From positions 1-15,665 of the IMG/VR virus record IMGVR_UViG_3300031998_000029: DNA of 15,665 nucleotides; one strand, written 5' to 3'. The notes beneath the pieces are model-generated. The model was not told the DNA's origin. It made no database searches and was given only the letters and a program-made list of their open reading frames with translations. The stretch's first letter is position 1; every line of letters begins with the position of its first letter. The translations under genes and the position numbers were made by a program. The stretch comes from a virus (lineage: Duplodnaviria > Heunggongvirae > Uroviricota > Caudoviricetes). Positions 1,124 through 15,665 of this stretch are shown here, piece after piece.

Positions 1124-1325
1124 CGCACTTATAAGCGCATGTTATAAGAGTACATTTGCTATCAAATGCGTCGCCGGCAGCATGAGGAATTAAGCCCATG
1201 GTTCGGATAGTGAAAACCGCCGGAGTTAAACCGAGTTAGATGTGAAACAAGGTCGCATATGGTTTAAATGCGTCAACAAAACTAACCGAAAATAGAGATT
1301 ATTAGGTTTTATAAACCTATAAATC

Positions 1326-1571: not shown

Positions 1572-1757
1572 ATGTCATACGAAAGCTTTAAATGCTGGGT
1601 TTTTTCCCTAGCAAGCAACAGCGGTTCGTTTGTTGTGGTTTCTAAGGATGACTCAACGCATACATATTGCGCGGATTTTCCAGACGGAACCAGACTTACG
1701 GTAAACCCTGACAGCGGGAAAACAAGGTTGGATTTTGGGAAAAAGGTGATTTGTTGA
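1572..1757 (+). CDS. Small hypothetical protein, 61 aa; paralog of 3265-3468
   Basis: SD-like AAGAGGG precedes the ATG. Shares FK...Y.A.FPDGTR with 3265-3468. Confidence 0.7.
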   Translation: MSYESFKCWVFSLASNSGSFVVVSKDDSTHTYCADFPDGTRLTVNPDSGKTRLDFGKKVIC

Positions 1758-1777
1758 GAAACATTTTAGGGTTTTCA

Positions 1778-1806
1778 TTGAATTATATCGCCCAGCTTGA
1801 TATAAT
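1778..1806 (+). promoter_or_regulatory. sigma70/sigmaA-type promoter with extended -10
   Basis: TTGAAT (1778-1783), 17-nt spacer, TG at 1798-1799, TATAAT (1801-1806). Confidence 0.75.
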
Positions 1807-1835
1807 TTATCACAGAAGGGCGGTGTGCGGGAAAT

Positions 1836-2525
1836 ATGGAATTTGAAAAAATCCGCATGGTTTTTTCAAAAGGGAATATCATAACGACTCCGAAAGGGTT
1901 GTCGGCGGTATATACAAGCCGGGAATCCTGGGTTGTGCAGAATATAACGGAAAACGCCTTTGAAGTTCTAAAGGAAATGATAAGGGTTTCCGACGGGTTT
2001 ACATTCGATACATCCGGGAATTTGATTTGCTTTACATTTCACGGGTATTTTGCAACAGAAAACATGGTTTTATATCCTGCGGTGGAAAATCAGATGTCCA
2101 TCGAGGAAATGAAAAATATGGTTTCGGCTTTTTCAAACCCCGACAAAGAGAGGGAATTTGCCGATTTTTTCATAGGCGTGGATATTAACGATCCGGACGC
2201 TTCTCTGTCGAGGCTTTTGGAATGGTATAACGAGAAAATAAAAGTAAATACGCTCGATTTTTCGGCTTTTAAACGCTGGAAAGATATGATTCGGTTTTTC
2301 AGGGTTCTCAAATCTCAGGGTTTTTTTGCAGACGCGGAAATTTCAGAGCCGGAAGACGGGTTTAACGGGTGTATTTCGATTCATATAACCCCGGAAATTC
2401 AGGATAACAGGGTTTTTCGCGGGAAATCAAAAGACGACTTGTTAAATCTTATTAATGCGTCCGGGGCTTTTGATTTTGAATGTTTGGTTTCCGAGGGTTT
2501 TTTAAATCTTGATTTTTACTCATAA
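1836..2525 (+). CDS. Hypothetical protein, 229 aa
   Basis: Long ORF downstream of the promoter and ending before a terminator. No family recognised. Confidence 0.75.
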   Translation: MEFEKIRMVFSKGNIITTPKGLSAVYTSRESWVVQNITENAFEVLKEMIRVSDGFTFDTSGNLICFTFHGYFATENMVLYPAVENQMSIEEMKNMVSAFSNPDKEREFADFFIGVDINDPDASLSRLLEWYNEKIKVNTLDFSAFKRWKDMIRFFRVLKSQGFFADAEISEPEDGFNGCISIHITPEIQDNRVFRGKSKDDLLNLINASGAFDFECLVSEGFLNLDFYS

Positions 2526-3477: not shown

Positions 3478-3672
3478 ATGAACAGCAGGCTTTTACTCAT
3501 ACCTACCAAAGACCGGAAGCGCGAGTGTTGTTACTGTGGCACTGATAACGTGAAGTATCTTATACGGTTTTTCGATCCCGACACAAAAGAGGATATAACC
3601 ATGCGGCAAGAGCGAAAAGTCGCGTGCTGCACTAGATGTGCAGCGCTTTTCATGAACTTCCGCACGATATAG
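3478..3672 (+). CDS. Putative zinc-ribbon protein, 64 aa (CCxC...CCxxC); paralog of 4039-4233
   Basis: SD AAGGAGGG. Two Cys clusters. Near-colinear with 4039-4233 (IRFFDPDTK, RKVACC.RCAALFM). Confidence 0.8.
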   Translation: MNSRLLLIPTKDRKRECCYCGTDNVKYLIRFFDPDTKEDITMRQERKVACCTRCAALFMNFRTI

Positions 3673-3697: not shown

Positions 3698-4003
3698 ATG
3701 AACAGCAGCATAAGAAATGGTCGCACACTTTTTATTCCCCACCCGTGGGAAATCGAATCGCAGATATTCCTCATGATAGACTGGGAAAAGGTCGATTATG
3801 ACTATATCCGCGCATACAACCGCGGGAATATCACGGCTCCCGAAGTGGCGGTCAGGTTTCCTGAGTCAGTCCCGGATTATTACTTTCAGCTCGCCACGGA
3901 AATGACGAAAAAGCTGAGAACCAGATCGTGGTGGGACGTTTACGAGTTCATCAATAAGGACAGCACGTTTCGCAGGGATTACGCGAAACGCTGCGAGTTA
4001 TAA
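3698..4003 (+). CDS. Hypothetical protein, 101 aa
   Basis: SD GGAGGAGGG; fits the operon spacing. Confidence 0.75.
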   Translation: MNSSIRNGRTLFIPHPWEIESQIFLMIDWEKVDYDYIRAYNRGNITAPEVAVRFPESVPDYYFQLATEMTKKLRTRSWWDVYEFINKDSTFRRDYAKRCEL

Positions 4004-4038
4004 AATAAGGGTTTTACCCATAAAAACGGAGAGATCTT

Positions 4039-6085: not shown

Positions 6086-6508
6086 ATGTTTTCAAAACAG
6101 TTTATAGATGAGGCGAAAGCTTTATATCCCACATGGCATGCTCTTCATGAAGCAATAGCAAATGGTTCTGGAATCATAGGCAGGTATCTTGATGATAGCA
6201 CGCCGACGGCGATTGATTATCGCGAAGTTCTCGCCGCAGCTTCCCTTGAGGAACTCAAAAGAAAAGCCATAATAATCAAACGGAAGAACGATTTATATAA
6301 TGCGTATAGATCCGGTTCTTGCTACCAGACAGAAAGCGATAAGCGTAAAGGTGTAGGTTGTCCGCGTCTATACGCACAAATGACGGACGACGAAGCCGCG
6401 CTCGATGCTTTCCATTGTTATGGAGTTTATCATATTCCCGACTGCAAAAGGTTTGATACCGGTGAATGCTGGGAACTCTTTGATGCTCTCGGCTTAAAGA
6501 TGAAATAG
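6086..6508 (+). CDS. Hypothetical protein, 140 aa
   Basis: SD AGGAGG; Cys/His-containing C-terminal part. Confidence 0.75.
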   Translation: MFSKQFIDEAKALYPTWHALHEAIANGSGIIGRYLDDSTPTAIDYREVLAAASLEELKRKAIIIKRKNDLYNAYRSGSCYQTESDKRKGVGCPRLYAQMTDDEAALDAFHCYGVYHIPDCKRFDTGECWELFDALGLKMK

Positions 6509-6521
6509 GCAGCGAACATTC

Positions 6522-6642
6522 GCCCCGATAGCTCAATTGGTTAGAGCACGTAAAATAAGGTTTGTTTATGAAAATCTTTGACAGCAAAAAGATAATTGCT
6601 CTTGTAAAGCCGAGGTTGCAGGTTCGAGTCCTGCTCGGGGCA
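6522..6642 (+). tRNA. tRNA-Thr(TGT) interrupted by a 47-nt insertion in the anticodon stem (intron-like element or pseudo-tRNA); no encoded CCA
   Basis: Acceptor GCCCCGA/TCGGGGC; D arm GCTC/GAGC; T arm GCAGG-TTCGAGT-CCTGC. Removing 6551-6597 restores a perfect anticodon stem CGGCT/AGCCG with loop CT-TGT-AA. Confidence 0.75.
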
Positions 6643-6649
6643 TTTTTAT

Positions 6650-6713
6650 CCGGCGGTAGCTTAACAGGTAAAGCGTGGAGCGATGGTTGCGGGTTCGAGA
6701 CCCGCCCGCCGGC
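6650..6713 (+). ncRNA. tRNA-like element lacking the anticodon arm
   Basis: Acceptor CCGGCGG/CCGCCGG; TA; D arm GCTT/AAGC; T arm GCGGG-TTCGAGA-CCCGC. Only 13 nt (6676-6688) lie between position 26 and the T stem, where a normal tRNA has about 22. Confidence 0.7.
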
Positions 6714-6726
6714 TAGTTTTCATGAG

Positions 6727-6973
6727 GAGATGCCAACAGCAAAAAAGAACACAAAATATTCTGATTTTGAACAAACGGCATCTCGTGTATTTCAAAAGGC
6801 ACATACAGCAACAAAAAAACGTTATCAAAAAGGTTGATTTTGATGAACTCGGTTTATCTTGCCTTCCTGATAAACCGAGTGAAATGTGCCTTGTAAATAA
6901 CTAACCCCTGATAAAGACGCCGAAGAAAAACAAGACTGCAAATCTTTTTAAGTTCAAAAAACTTCGGCGTCTT
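6727..6973 (+). ncRNA. Array of three long-stem hairpins, each carrying an ACWGCAA motif, in the leader of the DUF2828-type gene
   Basis: GAGATGCC/GGCATCTC (6727-6734/6777-6784) with ACAGCAA at 6736. AAGGCACAT/ATGTGCCTT (6796-6804/6884-6892) with ACAGCAA at 6805 and an inner 12-bp hairpin (6847-6880). AAGACGCCGAAG/CTTCGGCGTCTT (6914-6925/6962-6973) with ACTGCAA at 6935. Confidence 0.65.
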
Positions 6974-7006
6974 GTGGGGTTAAAAAACAGAAAGGGGTTA
7001 ATTAAA

Positions 7007-8575
7007 ATGGGTTTTTATGACGCGATTAACGACGAGCTTCTCGAAGGCTCAAACGTATCCGTGACTGAAAACGGAGCGATAGGCTACCGAACTACCGGCA
7101 AAAATCTGCTCGATTTAAACTTTGCGGTTGCTTCTTTGCGTTTCGCATCCGACGAGGATATTATTGCCAGATTCAAGAAAGCCTTTTTTGAGGATAAAAT
7201 GCTTGCCATGAAGTGGCTGTTCTTCGCTCGTGATATCAGGGGCGGTCTCGGAGAGCGTCGGCTTTTCCGCACAGCCATGCGGTTTATAGCAGACTACGAT
7301 CCCAGCATTGTTATAAACCTGATTCCCCTTATCGCAGAATACGGCAGGTTTGATGACCTGTGGGAATTTCTTGAATATCCGGAGATATATCCGGAGATCA
7401 TCGACTACATTCGCGCCCAGCTTCTCTCAGACATAGAAGACCGACGGGACGGCAATTCGATTTCTCTTCTTGCCAAATGGCTGCCGTCCGTAAACGCATC
7501 TTCCGCAAGAAGTAAGAAGTATTCAAGGATGATTTGCAACGGGCTCGGAACGAAAGTGTCTACGTATCGCAAGACTCTCAGCAGCCTCAGACGATATCTC
7601 AATGTCGTTGAACAGAAGATGTCTGCCGGAGAATGGAGAAATATAAATTACGAAGCCGTCCCGTCCCGTGCCAACCTTATCTATAAGGATGCATTCCTTC
7701 GCCACGACGAAAAGAGGCGCCGGAAATTTTTGTCAGCGCTTGAAAGGGGCGAAGCGAAAATCAACTCAGCCGTGCTTTATCCGCACGATATAGTCCATAA
7801 ATATATGGTTGATAATTTTTACCGTATGGATTTACGTTATCGCGACGAAGCCATAGAAGCAATGTGGAAATCGCTTCCCGATATGGTTAAAGGCGGCGGA
7901 AATACTATCGTAGTCGCTGACGGTTCCGGGTCAATGTGTTGCAAAGTGGGAGACGGAAACAGCTCACTAACCGCACTGGAAGTAGCCGACGCATTGGCGA
8001 TCTATTTTGCAGAACATTCGTCCGGTGAATTTCGGAATAAATATATCACATTCTCCGAGCACCCGCAGCTCGTTGATTTTTCAAAAGCATCGAGCTTGCA
8101 TGACAAGCTCAACATTGCATTGTCACACAACGAAGTCGCAAACACTAACATAGAGGCAGTCTTCGACCTGATTCTGAAAACCGCAGTCAGCAATCATATG
8201 CGTCAGGATGAAATTCCCGCAAACATTCTGATCATATCCGATATGGAATTCGATGGGTGCGCGTGCACTAATGACGGATACTGCTGGGGCGGCTTGCCTC
8301 AGAATTTATTCAAGACAATCGAGCAGAAATATATAGCAGCGGGGTACAAGCTCCCCAGGCTCGTATTCTGGAACGTCAATTCCCGCACCAACACAATTCC
8401 CGTACGCGAAAATGATATGGGCGTCGCGCTTGTCAGCGGTTTTTCTGTCAATATCTGCAAAATGATCATGAGCGGCAAGACCGACCCGTACGAGTGCCTT
8501 TTGGAAACCATCAACTCCGAGAGATATCAGCCTGTTGAGGATGTGTTAAAAGAAAATAAGAGGGTTTTCATATGA
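7007..8575 (+). CDS. DUF2828-family protein (TROVE/Ro60-related helical region plus C-terminal vWA domain), 522 aa
   Basis: Recognised motifs TENGA..Y.TTG..LLDL, RDIRGGLGER, YGRFDDL, AKWLPS, LYPHDIV, the vWA MIDAS-like VVADGSGSM, ISDMEFD, LVFWNV and LVSGFS. ATG 7007 follows SD AAAGGGG. Confidence 0.85.
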   Translation: MGFYDAINDELLEGSNVSVTENGAIGYRTTGKNLLDLNFAVASLRFASDEDIIARFKKAFFEDKMLAMKWLFFARDIRGGLGERRLFRTAMRFIADYDPSIVINLIPLIAEYGRFDDLWEFLEYPEIYPEIIDYIRAQLLSDIEDRRDGNSISLLAKWLPSVNASSARSKKYSRMICNGLGTKVSTYRKTLSSLRRYLNVVEQKMSAGEWRNINYEAVPSRANLIYKDAFLRHDEKRRRKFLSALERGEAKINSAVLYPHDIVHKYMVDNFYRMDLRYRDEAIEAMWKSLPDMVKGGGNTIVVADGSGSMCCKVGDGNSSLTALEVADALAIYFAEHSSGEFRNKYITFSEHPQLVDFSKASSLHDKLNIALSHNEVANTNIEAVFDLILKTAVSNHMRQDEIPANILIISDMEFDGCACTNDGYCWGGLPQNLFKTIEQKYIAAGYKLPRLVFWNVNSRTNTIPVRENDMGVALVSGFSVNICKMIMSGKTDPYECLLETINSERYQPVEDVLKENKRVFI

Positions 8576-8862
8576 ATAAACAGGAGTTGATCAACCGTGT
8601 CTCCCGCGACACGGGGCTGACAAAAAACATCGCGGAAATCGTTATGGACTCCATAACGAAAAACATCACCGAAGCTCTTTCGGACGGCGACGACGTCAGA
8701 ATAATGGGATTCGGAATTTTCGAACTCAAACGGTATTCTGCACGAATGGGCAGAGTCCCCGGAACAGGGGAGACCGTAGAGATACCGCCGAGAACCAGTC
8801 CGGTTTTTCGGGCGGGAACAAAATTAAAAAAGGCAGTTGCCGGAAAGGATGAAAGATGTTAA
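8572..8862 (+). CDS. hup: HU-family histone-like DNA-binding protein
   Basis: MNKQELI...; GFGIFE; R.GR.P.TGE.VEIP....PVFRAG..LK is the HU/IHF signature. Confidence 0.92.
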   Translation: MNKQELINRVSRDTGLTKNIAEIVMDSITKNITEALSDGDDVRIMGFGIFELKRYSARMGRVPGTGETVEIPPRTSPVFRAGTKLKKAVAGKDERC

Positions 8863-10356: not shown

Positions 10357-10441
10357 GGGGAATTGATGGAATGGCAGACATAGGGGACTTAAAATCCCTT
10401 GGGTCAAACCCGTATCGGTTCGAGTCCGATATTCCCCACCA
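10357..10441 (+). tRNA. tRNA-Leu(TAA) with encoded CCA
   Basis: Acceptor GGGGAAT/ATTCCCC; anticodon arm GGGGA-CTTAAAA-TCCCT; long variable arm GGG-TCAAA-CCC; T arm ATCGG-TTCGAGT-CCGAT; ends in ACCA. Confidence 0.95.
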
Positions 10442-13631: not shown

Positions 13632-13649
13632 GGATTGAAAGGAGTACAA

Positions 13650-14324
13650 ATGAATCTTAGTAAGTCATATGATTTTTTCCAGCCGGAAAAGGATAAGGCG
13701 CGTATACACATCATAGGCTGCGGCTCCGTCGGCAGCACCCTTGCGGAAAATCTGGCAAGGTGCGGCGTCACGAGGATGACGCTGTGGGACTTCGACAACG
13801 TCGAATCGAAGAACATAGTCAACCAGATGTTCCGTCAGCAGGATATCGGCAAGCCTAAGGTAGAGGCTCTGCGCGATATACTGCTTGAGATCAATCCGGA
13901 AATAGAGGAGGATCTCGAACTCAAGCCCGAGGGATGGCAGGGAAATATGCTGTCCGGATACATCTTTCTTGCCGTCGACAATATCGATCTTCGACGCAAA
14001 ATAGTAGAGCAGCATATGAATAACGCATATGTAAAGGCGGTTTTTGACTTCCGAACTCTGCTCGAAAGCGCACAGCACTTCGCGGCTGACTGGAGCAGTC
14101 CGGCTTCAAAAAAGAATCTGCTGAGCACGATGCAGTTTTCGCAGGAAGAGGGTCTTGAAGAAACTCCCGTTTCGGCGTGCGGCATAACGCTCGGAGTTGC
14201 CACGACCGTCCGCCTTATATGTGCACTCGGCGTGAACAACTATATAAACTTCGTCAAGGGCAACGGCATCTGGAAGTTCTGTCAGATAGACGGCTTCACC
14301 GGCACGCTCGACTGTTTCAAGTAA
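13650..14324 (+). CDS. ThiF/MoeB/E1-family adenylating enzyme, 224 aa
   Basis: IIGCGSVG nucleotide-binding loop, WDFD, KNIVNQ, GKPKV and AVDN..LR motifs. Candidate catalytic Cys in PVSACG (codon 14178-14180). No CxxC Zn pairs. SD GAAAGGAG precedes ATG 13650. Confidence 0.92.
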   Translation: MNLSKSYDFFQPEKDKARIHIIGCGSVGSTLAENLARCGVTRMTLWDFDNVESKNIVNQMFRQQDIGKPKVEALRDILLEINPEIEEDLELKPEGWQGNMLSGYIFLAVDNIDLRRKIVEQHMNNAYVKAVFDFRTLLESAQHFAADWSSPASKKNLLSTMQFSQEEGLEETPVSACGITLGVATTVRLICALGVNNYINFVKGNGIWKFCQIDGFTGTLDCFK

Positions 14325-14980: not shown

Positions 14981-15665
14981 ATGATCTACATTACGACTCC
15001 GCAGTCTCCGGTATATCCGCAGATAACACTGGAAGAACTGCTGTTTATGCCGGATTACAATCCAAAGCCGATATTGTGGAATTTTGCAAACACGCGAACA
15101 AGAGAGGCGGAACGCGCCCCGGCAGAGCTGATGCGCAAGATCGACGTAAACGCGCTGATATCACGGCTTTCCAAGTTCAATGCGGATACGGAATACCTGC
15201 GCAGCAAACCGCGAAAAGAACTTTACAGAGAGTTCTTTATTCCAAAGAAGGGAAGCGAGGGAGGCAGGATAAAGTGGCGCCGTATAGACGCCCCAAACCC
15301 CGATCTCATGAATGCTTTGTACACGCTCAAGTCGATATTTGAAGACAATTTCCGTGTTCTCTATCACACTTCGGCGTTTGCATATATAAAGAAGCGCAGC
15401 ACAATAGACGCAATAAAAAGACATCAGGAAAACGAGAGCAGATGGTTTGGGAAGTACGACCTGTCCGATTTCTTCGGAAGCACGACGCTCGACTTCGTTA
15501 TGGACATGTTCTCGATGGTGTTCCCGATATCAGAAGTCGCAAGGCGTCCGGACGGAAGAGCGGAGCTGAGAAAGGCGCTTGAGCTTGCGTTTCTTGACGG
15601 CGGGCTCCCGCAGGGAACCCCCATATCTCCGCTTATAACGAACGTCATGATGATCCCCATAGACT
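14981..15665 (+). CDS. Retron-type reverse transcriptase, 3'-truncated by the window end (228 codons visible; missing from the ORF track)
   Basis: SD AAGAAAGGA. Open frame MIYITTPQSP... carries RT motifs YREFFIPKKG..WRRIDAP, HTSAFAYIKKRS, KYDLSDFFGS and GLPQGTPISP. The YxDD motif would lie beyond the window. Confidence 0.9.
   Translation, partial: MIYITTPQSPVYPQITLEELLFMPDYNPKPILWNFANTRTREAERAPAELMRKIDVNALISRLSKFNADTEYLRSKPRKELYREFFIPKKGSEGGRIKWRRIDAPNPDLMNALYTLKSIFEDNFRVLYHTSAFAYIKKRSTIDAIKRHQENESRWFGKYDLSDFFGSTTLDFVMDMFSMVFPISEVARRPDGRAELRKALELAFLDGGLPQGTPISPLITNVMMIPID

What the first reader, a model, noticed from the sequence alone, without database searches (positions are those of the whole stretch)
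6522..6642. tRNA-Thr(UGU) split by a 47-nt insert between positions 28 and 29 of the anticodon stem
All tRNA arms are intact, and exact removal of 6551-6597 regenerates a perfect anticodon arm. The insert is far too short for a group I or II intron and shows no obvious bulge-helix-bulge. It carries a hairpin ATCTTT/AAAGAT whose loop holds ACAGCAA, and ACA is the codon read by this tRNA. AGCAA could alternatively pair with TTGCT (6596-6600). The first 10 nt of the insert (TAAAATAAGG) also match 4001-4010. Options are a novel protein-spliced tRNA intron, a tRNA scaffold repurposed to display the motif, a decoy for anticodon nucleases, or a decayed gene. Standard tRNA scanners would probably miss it.
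Basis: partly seen in the sequence, partly recalled or inferred. Interest (0 to 1): 0.8.

Follow-up and report, generated by a model that had tools for sequence, protein, structure and literature searches.

The report
tRNA-shaped partner RNA of Ro60-like protein
The "split threonine tRNA" is real and conserved, but its 47-base insert is a protein-binding handle that many phages graft onto tRNA-shaped and other small RNAs next to a Ro60-like ring-protein gene, so it is most likely a tRNA mimic bound by that protein and not a tRNA with a new kind of intron.

Summary
Bases 6522-6642 form a complete tRNA cloverleaf (Rfam tRNA, 49.9 bits; ARAGORN misses it). A 47-nt insert sits between positions 28 and 29, and only its exact removal restores a perfect Thr(UGU) anticodon arm.

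The insert is not unique. About 30 related phages carry 2-4 such over-long tRNA genes, and each insert holds a covarying 7-bp hairpin, a 1-2-nt spacer and AC[A/U]GCAA. The same helix-plus-motif "handle" also occurs without any tRNA body. Two more copies (6727-6784, 6796-6892) and an anticodon-less tRNA-like RNA (6650-6713) follow in this window.

All lie just upstream of a gene (7007-8575) whose predicted fold is Ro60/TROVE plus vWA. Across 160 diverse loci holding this gene the handle is strongly strand- and position-linked to it (302 vs 19, and 178 vs 21).

Canonical tRNAs of these phages encode CCA (24 of 25); handle-bearing ones mostly do not (8 of 28). The genome has an ordinary tRNA-Thr(UGU) and no RtcB or splicing endonuclease.

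Best reading: an undescribed analogue of Y RNA (YrlA). A protein-dependent intron is not excluded. Earlier agents of this scan found the same family on other DNA. I found it neither in Rfam nor in the papers searched.

The parts
6522..6642 (+). tRNA-shaped RNA (body of a tRNA with a Thr UGU anticodon loop) carrying the 47-nt handle insert. No encoded CCA; the gene is followed by TTTTTAT.
   Evidence: Rfam tRNA 49.9 bits. Cloverleaf pairs covary across 15 relatives: 97.5% of cells paired. Ortholog with the same body and insertion site at L044 3491-3616. CCA absent.
6551..6597 (+). Insert between tRNA positions 28 and 29. It starts with the UA that follows the conserved CG in all 15 type-A relatives.
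   Evidence: Unique exact excision. Junction columns are invariant in alignment A4.
6557..6578 (+). Handle hairpin: AAGGTTT (6557-6563), 8-nt loop, AAATCTT (6572-6578).
   Evidence: Chosen by the MFE fold. It is in register with the covarying 7-bp helix of relatives: A2 has 96.4% of cells paired and 7 of 7 pairs with compensatory changes. L044 shows U-A changed to C-G at pair 5.
6581..6587 (+). Single-stranded conserved motif ACAGCAA, 2 nt after the helix.
   Evidence: A, C, G, C and the final A are invariant in 20 aligned modules. The variant ACTGCAA occurs in L044, L026 and L128.
6598..6612 (+). Remainder of the anticodon arm: GCT, loop CTTGTAA, AGCCG.
   Evidence: The three inner pairs all show compensatory changes across relatives, 95.6% paired. 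The loop keeps U33 and A37.
6650..6713 (+). tRNA-like RNA with acceptor, D and T arms but no anticodon arm. It has no handle and no CCA.
   Evidence: Rfam tRNA 43.9 bits, with 6 nt where the model has 15. Fold. Absent from L044.
6727..6784 (+). Handle module without a tRNA body. Closing stem GAGATGCC (6727-6734) pairs with GGCATCTC (6777-6784). ACAGCAA lies at 6736-6742, followed by a small internal hairpin.
   Evidence: Motif scan. MFE fold of 6714-6900 has z = -5.07. The same architecture occurs in L044, L005, Lumos and Listeria phage.
6796..6892 (+). Handle module without a tRNA body. Closing stem AAGGCACAT (6796-6804) pairs with ATGTGCCTT (6884-6892). ACAGCAA lies at 6805-6811, with two internal hairpins.
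   Evidence: Weak model hits over 6781-6816: 15.5 bits with R1, 13.9 bits with R2. L044 has near-identical closing-stem ends, AAGGCAC../..GTGCCTT.
6914..6973 (+). 12-bp hairpin (AAGACGCCGAAG / CTTCGGCGTCTT) whose interior holds ACTGCAA (6935-6941), here as part of an anticodon-loop-like CTGCAAA. It is a looser fourth element in the leader.
   Evidence: Read from the sequence. Not scored by the models.
7007..8575 (+). Ro60-like gene: alpha-helical TROVE-type domain plus vWA domain with an intact MIDAS motif. The ORF is open from GTG 6974. The likely start is ATG 7007, behind the ribosome-binding site AAAGGGG.
   Evidence: PHROG 850 'RNA-binding protein', E 5e-133. Pfam DUF2828 + DUF7788. AF2 model pLDDT 91. 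Foldseek top 13 hits are all Ro60/TROVE: 9kop E 1.2e-8, 1yvp 4.9e-8, phage phiLo Ro60 9l5y. D316/S318/S320 are invariant. Start read from the sequence.

Best explanation
Bases 6522-6642 encode a stable, non-decoding, tRNA-shaped small RNA. It is the first unit of an RNA array (6522-6973) that also holds an anticodon-less tRNA-like RNA and two to three stem-enclosed modules.

The 47-nt insert is a protein-binding handle: a 7-bp helix, a 2-nt spacer and single-stranded ACAGCAA. It projects from the anticodon stem as the third arm of a three-way junction. The handle is proposed to be the docking site for the Ro60-like ring protein encoded directly downstream (7007-8575). The tRNA body, with its intact elbow and a canonical anticodon loop, is the displayed cargo.

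By analogy with Ro60 and YrlA, the resulting particle would present a tRNA look-alike to enzymes that recognise tRNAs. These could be processing or repair enzymes or exonucleases, or host anticodon nucleases, for which it would act as bait or sensor.

Shown here:
- the anatomy;
- covariation of the helix and the cloverleaf;
- the genomic link to the gene;
- the predicted Ro60 fold;
- the non-tRNA copies of the handle;
- the lack of encoded CCA.

Inferred:
- that the protein binds the handle;
- that the RNA is not spliced;
- what the particle does.
For: 1. The neighbouring gene has a Ro60/TROVE + vWA fold. The AF2 model has pLDDT 91. The Foldseek top 13 PDB hits are all Ro60/TROVE (E 1e-8 to 2e-5), including a phage Ro60. 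The MIDAS residues are invariant.

2. The handle is a family. Twenty modules align with an invariant AC-GC-A core and a helix in which all 7 pairs show compensatory changes: 96.4% paired against 31-53% when the partners are slid.

3. The handle is tied to the gene, not to tRNAs.
- In 80 IMG/VR loci with a 36-70% identical protein, helix + AC[AT]GCAA occurs 302 times on the gene strand and 19 times on the other. It is present in 76 of 80 loci, 165 times within 1 kb upstream and 34 times within 0.5 kb downstream.
- All 127 hits of the covariance model lie on the gene strand.
- In 80 bacterial or MAG loci the counts are 178 vs 21, in 67 of 80 loci.
- Handles also lie within 0.05-1 kb of the gene in Mycobacterium phage Lumos, a Felix O1-like coliphage and Listeria phage LP-048.
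- In this 115-kb genome the model hits only this leader.

4. The cargo is interchangeable. There are four tRNA body types with the handle at positions 28/29, 31-34 or in the D-arm region. There are also permuted YrlA-like tRNA domains (Lumos), bare anticodon-arm mimics and plain stems.

5. Handle-bearing tRNA-likes encode CCA in 8 of 28 cases. Canonical tRNAs of the same phages do so in 24 of 25. This one and its armless neighbour have none.

6. In 11 of 29 relatives no single excision yields a canonical anticodon arm.

7. The genome has an ordinary tRNA-Thr(UGU), and no RtcB or splicing endonuclease.
Against: - No binding data exist. The protein-RNA pairing rests on gene neighbourhood and on analogy with Ro60 and Y RNA.
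- A covariance model built without the window's own sequence scores this handle at only 11.8 bits (E about 1.2). Its helix is A/U-rich and its loop is long. Membership therefore rests on three things: the ortholog in L044, which scores 20.7 bits; the rule-based match (7 bp, 2-nt spacer, exact ACAGCAA); and the context.
- The exact restoration of a perfect arm, the covarying inner anticodon stem, the canonical U33/A37 loop and the conserved CG|UA junction in type-A elements are what a spliced tRNA would also show.
- The loci compared are partly related by descent, so the counts and P values overstate independence.
Confidence: 0.6

Rival explanations
1. A protein-dependent tRNA intron. The handle marks an intervening sequence that an endonuclease excises and a ligase seals, possibly with the Ro60-like protein as the recognition subunit. 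The product would be a functional tRNA-Thr(UGU).
For: - There is one and only one exact excision, and it gives a perfect 5-bp stem and a 7-nt loop.
- The inner anticodon-stem pairs covary, and U33 and R37 are kept.
- The tRNA body is far better conserved than the insert between the window and L044.
- The 5' junction CG|UA is conserved in 15 type-A elements.
- Orthologous bodies carry different but always canonical anticodon loops: UGU here; GUU, UCU and UUU elsewhere.
- One phage (Listeria LP-048) has RtcB 1.3 kb from the Ro60-like gene.
Against: - The same handle sits on RNAs with no tRNA to splice, two of them in this array.
- The insertion site varies between body types, and 11 of 29 relatives cannot be turned into a canonical arm by one excision.
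- No bulge-helix-bulge can be drawn at the junctions.
- The genome has no EndA-type endonuclease and no RtcB.
- RtcB lies within 4 kb in only 1 of about 120 loci.
- Encoded CCA is mostly lost, while real tRNAs keep it.
- The genome already has a canonical tRNA-Thr(UGU).
- No uninterrupted allele was found in IMG/VR.
Confidence: 0.15
2. A cis-acting leader. The handles are operator sites in the 5' untranslated region, through which the Ro60-like protein (or another factor) feeds back on its own translation or mRNA stability. The tRNA-like bodies serve mainly as RNase P/Z processing punctuation.
For: - The whole array lies between the previous ORF (ends 6508) and the gene start (7007), on the same strand. 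No better-than-chance promoter or terminator was found between them.
- Most handles in other loci lie within 1 kb upstream of the gene.
Against: - In Lumos and the Felix O1-like phage the handles lie downstream of the gene. One search counts 34 handles within 0.5 kb downstream.
- Elaborate, covarying tRNA bodies and anticodon-arm mimics are not needed for an operator.
Confidence: 0.1
3. The handle is recognised by a factor other than the Ro60-like protein, for example a host RNase or chaperone or another phage protein. In that case the gene linkage reflects co-regulation only.
For: Binding was not tested. The motif contains ACA, a common endoribonuclease site.
Against: In the phage groups compared, the Ro60-like gene is the only neighbour that recurs beside the handles. 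In the three annotated examples (Mycobacterium, Listeria and Escherichia phages) the flanking genes differ.
Confidence: 0.08
4. A decayed tRNA pseudogene, an assembly chimera, or a protein-coding ORF (6562-6837) that starts in the insert.
For: The element is missed by ARAGORN. An ORF of 91 codons, with AAGG 7 nt before an ATG, runs from the insert through the downstream RNAs.
Against: - The architecture is conserved with compensatory changes in dozens of phages.
- The ortholog in L044 closes the corresponding reading frame after 12 codons.
- The ORF has no Pfam hit.
Confidence: 0.02

Closest known systems
YrlA-type Y RNAs bound by Ro60/Rsr in bacteria and mycobacteriophages (Rfam RF02553; Chen et al. 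2014, PMC4201824)
   Same: - A small RNA encoded next to a Ro60-fold gene.
- Modular design: a protein-binding module plus a tRNA-mimicking module with intact D and T arms.
- Several different RNAs per locus.
- A genomic link to tRNA biology and, in one phage, to RtcB.
   Different: - The protein belongs to Pfam DUF2828/DUF7788, not the Pfam TROVE family. It matches Ro60 only by fold, at 11-17% identity.
- The docking module is a 7-bp helix plus single-stranded ACAGCAA, not the Y-RNA helix formed by the RNA's two ends.
- The tRNA here is not permuted: it has free acceptor ends and the handle is grafted into the anticodon stem.
- It retains a canonical anticodon loop.
- RF02553 scores only 27 bits here against a cut-off of 69.
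Archaeal and eukaryal protein-spliced tRNA introns (bulge-helix-bulge, EndA/TSEN plus RtcB or Trl1; review PMC4090602)
   Same: A short insert in the anticodon arm whose exact removal restores the arm. Non-canonical positions such as the anticodon stem are known in archaea.
   Different: - There is no bulge-helix-bulge, no splicing endonuclease and no ligase in the genome.
- The insert is a conserved module that also occurs outside tRNAs.
- The setting is a phage of bacteria.
Group I introns in bacterial and phage tRNA genes (PMC3984707)
   Same: They interrupt the anticodon region of bacterial-type tRNA genes.
   Different: They are 200 nt or longer, with a catalytic core. Here the insert is 47 nt and has no RF00028 match, although the same kind of scan found a group I intron elsewhere in this genome.
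Phage tRNAs that counter host anticodon nucleases
   Same: They are phage-encoded, lie close to the phage's tRNA genes, and display anticodon loops of types that such nucleases attack (my knowledge, not tested here).
   Different: Those are ordinary, chargeable tRNAs. This RNA has a disrupted anticodon stem and no encoded CCA, and it is paired with a Ro60-like gene.

Membership tests
Decoding tRNA (tRNA-Thr UGU) | Cloverleaf with acceptor, D and T arms and conserved elbow nucleotides | tested here: met
   Rfam tRNA 49.9 bits. Pairs covary across relatives.
Decoding tRNA (tRNA-Thr UGU) | Contiguous 5-bp anticodon stem with a 7-nt loop in the gene product | tested here: not met
   47 nt interrupt the stem between positions 28 and 29. 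The arm is canonical only after a hypothetical excision.
Decoding tRNA (tRNA-Thr UGU) | 3' CCA encoded, as in the other tRNAs of this phage group | tested here: not met
   The gene is followed by TTTTTAT. Canonical tRNAs encode CCA in 24 of 25 cases, handle-bearing ones in 8 of 28.
Decoding tRNA (tRNA-Thr UGU) | Aminoacylation and use in translation | not testable with these tools
   Needs a charging assay or tRNA-seq.
Protein-spliced tRNA intron (BHB type) | Bulge-helix-bulge at the two junctions | tested here: not met
   The junction sequences GCACG|TAAAAT and ATAATT|GCTCTT cannot form two 3-nt bulges around a 4-bp helix. The MFE fold shows none.
Protein-spliced tRNA intron (BHB type) | Splicing endonuclease and RNA ligase available from the element's own genome | tested here: not met
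   PF01974 and PF01139 are absent from the 115-kb genome, which is 97% complete. Host enzymes are unknown.
Protein-spliced tRNA intron (BHB type) | Spliced product exists | not testable with these tools
   Needs RNA from infected cells.
Group I intron | Catalytic core of about 200 nt or more matching RF00028 | tested here: not met
   The insert is 47 nt and has no RF00028 hit at E <= 10.
YrlA / Y RNA (RF02553) | Encoded beside a Ro60-fold protein gene | tested here: met
   The gene starts 365 nt downstream of the RNA (6642 to 7007). Fold match to Ro60.
YrlA / Y RNA (RF02553) | Score at or above the Rfam gathering threshold (69 bits) | tested here: not met
   27 bits, and the match spans two neighbouring elements.
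YrlA / Y RNA (RF02553) | Permuted tRNA-like domain with the 5' and 3' ends forming the Ro-binding stem | tested here: not met
   Topology is that of an ordinary tRNA, with the handle inside the anticodon stem. The permuted form with the same handle does occur in phage Lumos.
YrlA / Y RNA (RF02553) | Physical binding to the Ro60 protein | not testable with these tools
   Needs pull-down, CLIP or EMSA.
Helix-ACAGCAA handle RNAs beside DUF2828-type Ro60-like genes (not in Rfam; defined by this scan) | 7-bp helix, 1-2-nt spacer, AC[A/U]GCAA | tested here: met
   Helix 6557-6578, spacer TG, ACAGCAA at 6581-6587.
Helix-ACAGCAA handle RNAs beside DUF2828-type Ro60-like genes (not in Rfam; defined by this scan) | Significant score with a covariance model built from other members only | tested here: inconclusive
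   R2, built without the window, gives 11.8 bits (E about 1.2). The ortholog in L044 gets 20.7 bits (E 0.0018) and L128 gets 27.4 bits. R1 gives 25.7 bits but included the window in its seed.
Helix-ACAGCAA handle RNAs beside DUF2828-type Ro60-like genes (not in Rfam; defined by this scan) | Same strand as the Ro60-like gene and within about 1 kb of it | tested here: met
   426 nt upstream of the start (6581 to 7007), on the same strand. Family-wide counts are 302 vs 19 and 178 vs 21.
Ro60 / TROVE proteins (for the neighbouring gene) | Ro60/TROVE alpha-helical domain plus vWA domain with a MIDAS motif | tested here: met
   Foldseek TM 0.49-0.54 to 1yvp and 9kop, probability 1.0. DxSxS is invariant.
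Ro60 / TROVE proteins (for the neighbouring gene) | Match to the Pfam TROVE domain or sequence similarity to solved Ro60 | tested here: not met
   Pfam gives DUF2828 + DUF7788 only. phmmer against PDB sequences finds no Ro60.

The most novel reading that the evidence does not exclude
The handle marks a caged 'pro-tRNA'. The Ro60-like ring holds an inactive tRNA that anticodon nucleases cannot use. On demand, for example when host anticodon nucleases deplete tRNAs, the handle is cut out and the halves are sealed by a host or phage ligase. This would be a protein-guided tRNA splicing or activation system in bacteria and their phages, with the Ro60-like protein as the intron-recognition subunit.
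Probability: 0.1. Interest if true: 0.9.

Novelty: new variant of a known kind. Interest (0 to 1): 0.65.

Why it matters
Ro60 and Y RNAs are a long-studied but functionally murky ribonucleoprotein. In bacteria they are linked to RNA decay and to the RtcB repair operon, which responds to damaged tRNAs.

The protein family here is large: 6871 clusters at 50% identity. It is present in 711 sequenced phages, including tractable ones such as Felix O1-like coliphages, P100-like Listeria phages, cluster L mycobacteriophages and KVP40. There it is annotated only as 'RNA-binding protein' or 'DUF2828'.

A simple, recognisable RNA handle would name this protein's partner RNAs. It would explain many over-long or 'pseudo' tRNA calls in phage genomes. 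It would also make the function of phage Ro60-like proteins directly testable, for example as tRNA mimicry in the conflict over tRNA cleavage.

For annotation, these loci should not be called intron-bearing tRNAs or pseudogenes.

Tried and rejected
- blastn of 6400-6850 against 50,697 phage records: no match.
- Exact-pattern scans of IMG/VR. No uninterrupted allele of this tRNA body was found. The 3' half occurs only in the L044 contig.
- A 19-mer from the armless tRNA-like RNA hit only unrelated tRNAs.
- Rfam in E-value mode over 6300-7000 gave nothing beyond tRNA and a sub-threshold YrlA hit.
- RtcB and the tRNA-intron endonuclease are absent from the genome.
- tblastn with a phage RtcB across about 120 loci matched only its own locus.
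- The hairpin-type covariance model does not detect stem-enclosed handles.
- ORF 6562-6837 was rejected as coding.
- PHROGs, Pfam and NCBIfam gave no hits for most neighbouring ORFs.
- Paper searches for DUF2828, tRNA intron plus bacteriophage, Ro60 plus phage, Ro-like, and YrlA plus phage found no description of the handle.
Full report
**What is in the sequence**

Bases 6522-6642 on the + strand match the Rfam tRNA model over its full length (49.9 bits, E 2.6e-8). The match has 60 nt where the model expects the 13 central nucleotides of the anticodon arm. ARAGORN reports only a tRNA-Leu(UAA) at 10357-10441 and misses this element.

Reading the sequence gives a 7-bp acceptor stem, a normal D arm and T arm, and a discriminator A. 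The anticodon stem is split into two outer pairs (CG 6549-6550 with CG 6611-6612) and three inner pairs (GCT 6598-6600 with AGC 6608-6610), around the loop CTTGTAA. A scan of every possible single excision found exactly one that yields a 5-bp stem and a 7-nt loop with U33 and a purine at 37. That excision is 6551-6597 and the anticodon is UGU.

**The insert is a conserved module, not an accident**

The 533-codon ORF just downstream (6974-8575) was used to fetch 33 related loci from IMG/VR, at 47-64% protein identity. In most of them the Rfam tRNA model finds two to four hits of 111-124 nt within about 1 kb upstream of that gene, and ARAGORN misses all of them. Every one carries a 41-52-nt insert with the same plan:
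- an A-rich start;
- a 7-8-bp hairpin of variable sequence;
- one or two spacer nucleotides;
- ACAGCAA, or ACTGCAA in a few lineages;
- a short linker.

In an alignment of 20 modules the letters A, C, G, C and the final A of the motif are invariant. The helix is paired in 96.4% of cells, and compensatory changes occur at all seven pairs. When the 3' partners are slid by 1-3 columns, only 31-53% pair.

In the window, the hairpin in register with this family is AAGGTTT (6557-6563) / AAATCTT (6572-6578), followed by TG and ACAGCAA (6581-6587). The minimum-free-energy fold picks the same hairpin. It has no counterpart in the closest ortholog.

**The closest ortholog**

L044 has a 70% identical protein. 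It carries the same tRNA body with the insert at the same 28/29 site (L044 3491-3616). The differences are:
- The body differs at a few positions, including a compensated acceptor pair.
- The insert is much more diverged, but it keeps a 7-bp helix (one U-A pair becomes C-G) and ACTGCAA.
- The anticodon loop reads CTGTTAA (GUU) instead of CTTGTAA (UGU).

No uninterrupted allele of this body exists in IMG/VR by exact-pattern search.

**The handle is not tied to tRNAs**

Among the relatives the module sits at different places:
- between positions 28 and 29, in bodies with Asn-, Thr-, Lys- and Arg-type loops;
- at 31-34, in two other body types;
- in the D-arm region of a fourth body type, which Rfam does not recognise.

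It also occurs with no tRNA at all. In that form a 7-12-bp closing stem has its 5' strand followed by ACAGCAA, then a linker and often an anticodon-arm-like hairpin, before the 3' strand closes the stem.

This window contains two such units:
- 6727-6784, with ACAGCAA at 6736-6742;
- 6796-6892, with ACAGCAA at 6805-6811.

It also has a looser hairpin at 6914-6973 that holds ACTGCAA. The stretch 6714-6900 folds far better than shuffles (z = -5.07). Between the first unit and these lies a tRNA-like RNA with acceptor, D and T arms but no anticodon arm (6650-6713; 43.9 bits).

The finding is therefore the first unit of an RNA array that fills the gap between the ORF ending at 6508 and the gene start.

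**The neighbouring gene is Ro60-like**

- PHROGs calls the protein 'RNA-binding protein' (phrog_850, E 5e-133). Pfam gives DUF2828 plus DUF7788 and a weak vWA match.
- Sequence search against PDB chains finds no Ro60.
- An AlphaFold2 model built from 54 homologs (pLDDT 91, pTM 0.90) matches Ro60/TROVE structures as its top 13 Foldseek hits. These include 9kop (E 1.2e-8), 1yvp (4.9e-8) and the Ro60 of Thermus phage phiLo (9l5y), with TM about 0.5 over the whole chain. Isolated vWA domains come next.
- The vWA MIDAS residues (D316, S318, S320) are invariant.
- The likely start is ATG 7007, behind the ribosome-binding site AAAGGGG.
- The family is large: 6871 clusters at 50% identity reach E <= 1e-3. 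It is present in 711 sequenced phages of Escherichia, Salmonella, Mycobacterium, Listeria, Vibrio, Staphylococcus, Campylobacter and others.

**Link between handle and gene**

- In 80 further IMG/VR loci with 36-70% identical proteins, a rule-based scan (7-bp helix next to AC[AT]GCAA) finds 302 modules on the gene strand and 19 on the other. They occur in 76 of 80 loci: 165 lie within 1 kb upstream and 34 within 0.5 kb downstream.
- All 127 hits of the covariance model R1 at E <= 1 are on the gene strand.
- In 80 loci from bacterial genomes and MAGs, mostly gut Clostridia, the counts are 178 against 21, in 67 of 80 loci.
- In three annotated, unrelated phages the handles lie right beside the gene. 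There are three just downstream in Mycobacterium phage Lumos, one of which closes a permuted YrlA-like tRNA domain. There are two downstream in a Felix O1-like coliphage, and three just upstream in Listeria phage LP-048.
- In the window's own 115-kb genome, R1 hits only this leader.

These loci are partly related by descent, so the binomial P values overstate independence. Even so, the pattern holds across very distant phages.

**A caveat on membership**

R1 included the window's sequence in its seed. A model built without it (R2) gives this handle only 11.8 bits (E about 1.2). The L044 ortholog scores 20.7 bits and a Clostridia-MAG relative scores 27.4 bits. The window's helix is A/U-rich and has an 8-nt loop, which the G/C-rich seed penalises. 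I place it in the family on three grounds: the orthology to L044, the exact rule match and the context. The model score is not one of them.

**Intron or handle?**

Points in favour of splicing:
- There is a unique exact excision.
- The three inner anticodon-stem pairs all covary across 15 relatives (95.6% paired).
- The loop keeps U33 and A37.
- The 5' junction CG|UA is invariant in these 15.

Points against splicing:
- The handle occurs on RNAs with nothing to splice, including two in this array.
- Its position varies between body types.
- In 11 of 29 relatives no single excision gives a canonical arm.
- No bulge-helix-bulge can be drawn.
- The genome lacks RtcB and an EndA-type endonuclease. 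RtcB lies within 4 kb of the gene in only one of about 120 loci.
- The genome already has an ordinary tRNA-Thr(UGU).
- Canonical tRNAs of these phages encode CCA in 24 of 25 cases. Handle-bearing tRNA-likes do so in 8 of 28, often with decayed-looking TCA, CAA or ACA. This one and its armless neighbour have none (Fisher P 5e-7).

The last point suggests relaxed selection on the end that a decoding tRNA needs.

**Most likely mechanism**

The array is transcribed with the gene. No convincing promoter or terminator separates them. The tRNA-like bodies probably direct end-processing. Each handle docks one Ro60-like ring, and the vWA/MIDAS domain is free to bind a protein partner.

The displayed cargo is a tRNA look-alike with an intact elbow and a canonical anticodon loop. 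Downstream of handles in general, anticodon-arm-like hairpins are enriched about four-fold over control positions (89 of 274 against 110 of 1370). UUU and GUU are the commonest 'anticodons'. These anticodon types are known nuclease targets (my knowledge, not tested here).

This parallels Ro60 with YrlA, where a tRNA-like domain recruits tRNA-recognising enzymes (PMC4201824). It also parallels the link between the rsr-yrlBA-rtcBA operon and damaged tRNAs (PMC7790460). Binding, lack of splicing and the biological role are all inferences.

**Comparison with what is known**

The closest described system is Ro60 with YrlA. This case differs in four ways:
- the protein family (DUF2828/DUF7788, not Pfam TROVE);
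- the docking module (helix plus ACAGCAA);
- the topology (an ordinary, unpermuted tRNA with the handle grafted into the anticodon stem);
- the retained anticodon loop.

RF02553 scores 27 bits here against a cut-off of 69. No Rfam family matches the handle. The paper searches found no description of it.

Earlier agents of this scan reported the same handle and the same reading on other genomes. I formed the reading before that look-up, and re-tested the main claims here.

**Verdict**

I rate this a new variant of a known kind: a Y-RNA-like partner RNA of a Ro60-like phage protein. Confidence is about 0.6, with a protein-dependent intron at about 0.15.

Noticed in passing
window 6650-6713 (+): tRNA-like RNA with perfect acceptor, D and T arms but only about 9 nt where the anticodon arm should be. 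It has no handle and no CCA. It sits between the handle-bearing tRNA-like RNA and the stem-enclosed handles. It is absent from the closest relative, L044.
   Followed up: partly
window 1153-1225 (+): RAGATH-16 RNA, above the Rfam gathering score (68.8 bits against 65.6).
   Followed up: no
window 8572-8862, 13635-14324, 14981-15664 (+): An HU-like DNA-binding protein lies directly after the Ro60-like gene. Further on are a ThiF/E1-like adenylyltransferase and the start of a reverse transcriptase (RVT_1) that runs off the window.
   Followed up: no
L039 7344-7630 (-), same genome (about 101.9-102.2 kb): Group I catalytic intron (RF00028, 86.5 bits) elsewhere in this phage genome.
   Followed up: no
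L008 2466-2590 versus L010 2493-2617 (and L033): Almost identical handle-bearing tRNA-like genes differ in the anticodon loop: CTGTTAA (GUU) against CTTCTAA (UCU). The displayed anticodon is swapped while the loop shape is kept.
   Followed up: partly
Handle-bearing tRNA-likes in L002-L033 (3' flanks): Canonical tRNAs of these phages are followed by CCA (24 of 25). The handle-bearing ones often read TCA, CAA or ACA instead, as if the CCA had decayed.
   Followed up: yes
L043 (Listeria phage LP-048) 1493-2044, 2696-2861, 5876-7087: A ROOL-like RNA (90 bits, just below the cut-off of 99.1), three handle motifs (ACAGCAA at 2696, 2786 and 2855), the Ro60-like gene and an RtcB ligase lie in one 6-kb stretch.
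   Followed up: partly
L041 (Mycobacterium phage Lumos) 3962-4220: Three handles lie just downstream of the 'RNA-binding protein' gene. The middle one closes a permuted, YrlA-like tRNA domain (RF02553, 39 bits, below the cut-off). This links the handle family to classical YrlA architecture.
   Followed up: partly
L125 and L126 (about 3500-3650 and 1730-1880, minus strand): Another tRNA-like gene with a roughly 60-nt insert of a different kind after the D arm, found by chance with a D-arm probe.
   Followed up: no
L002 1962-2070, L014 1935-2045 and relatives: A fourth handle-bearing body type (TGGGAGC...) that the Rfam tRNA model does not hit. It has acceptor and T arms and a canonical anticodon arm (loops CTGCAAA, CTGGAAA, CTGTAAA, CTTGAAA). 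The handle, with a conserved ACGGCGG loop, sits where the D arm should be.
   Followed up: partly
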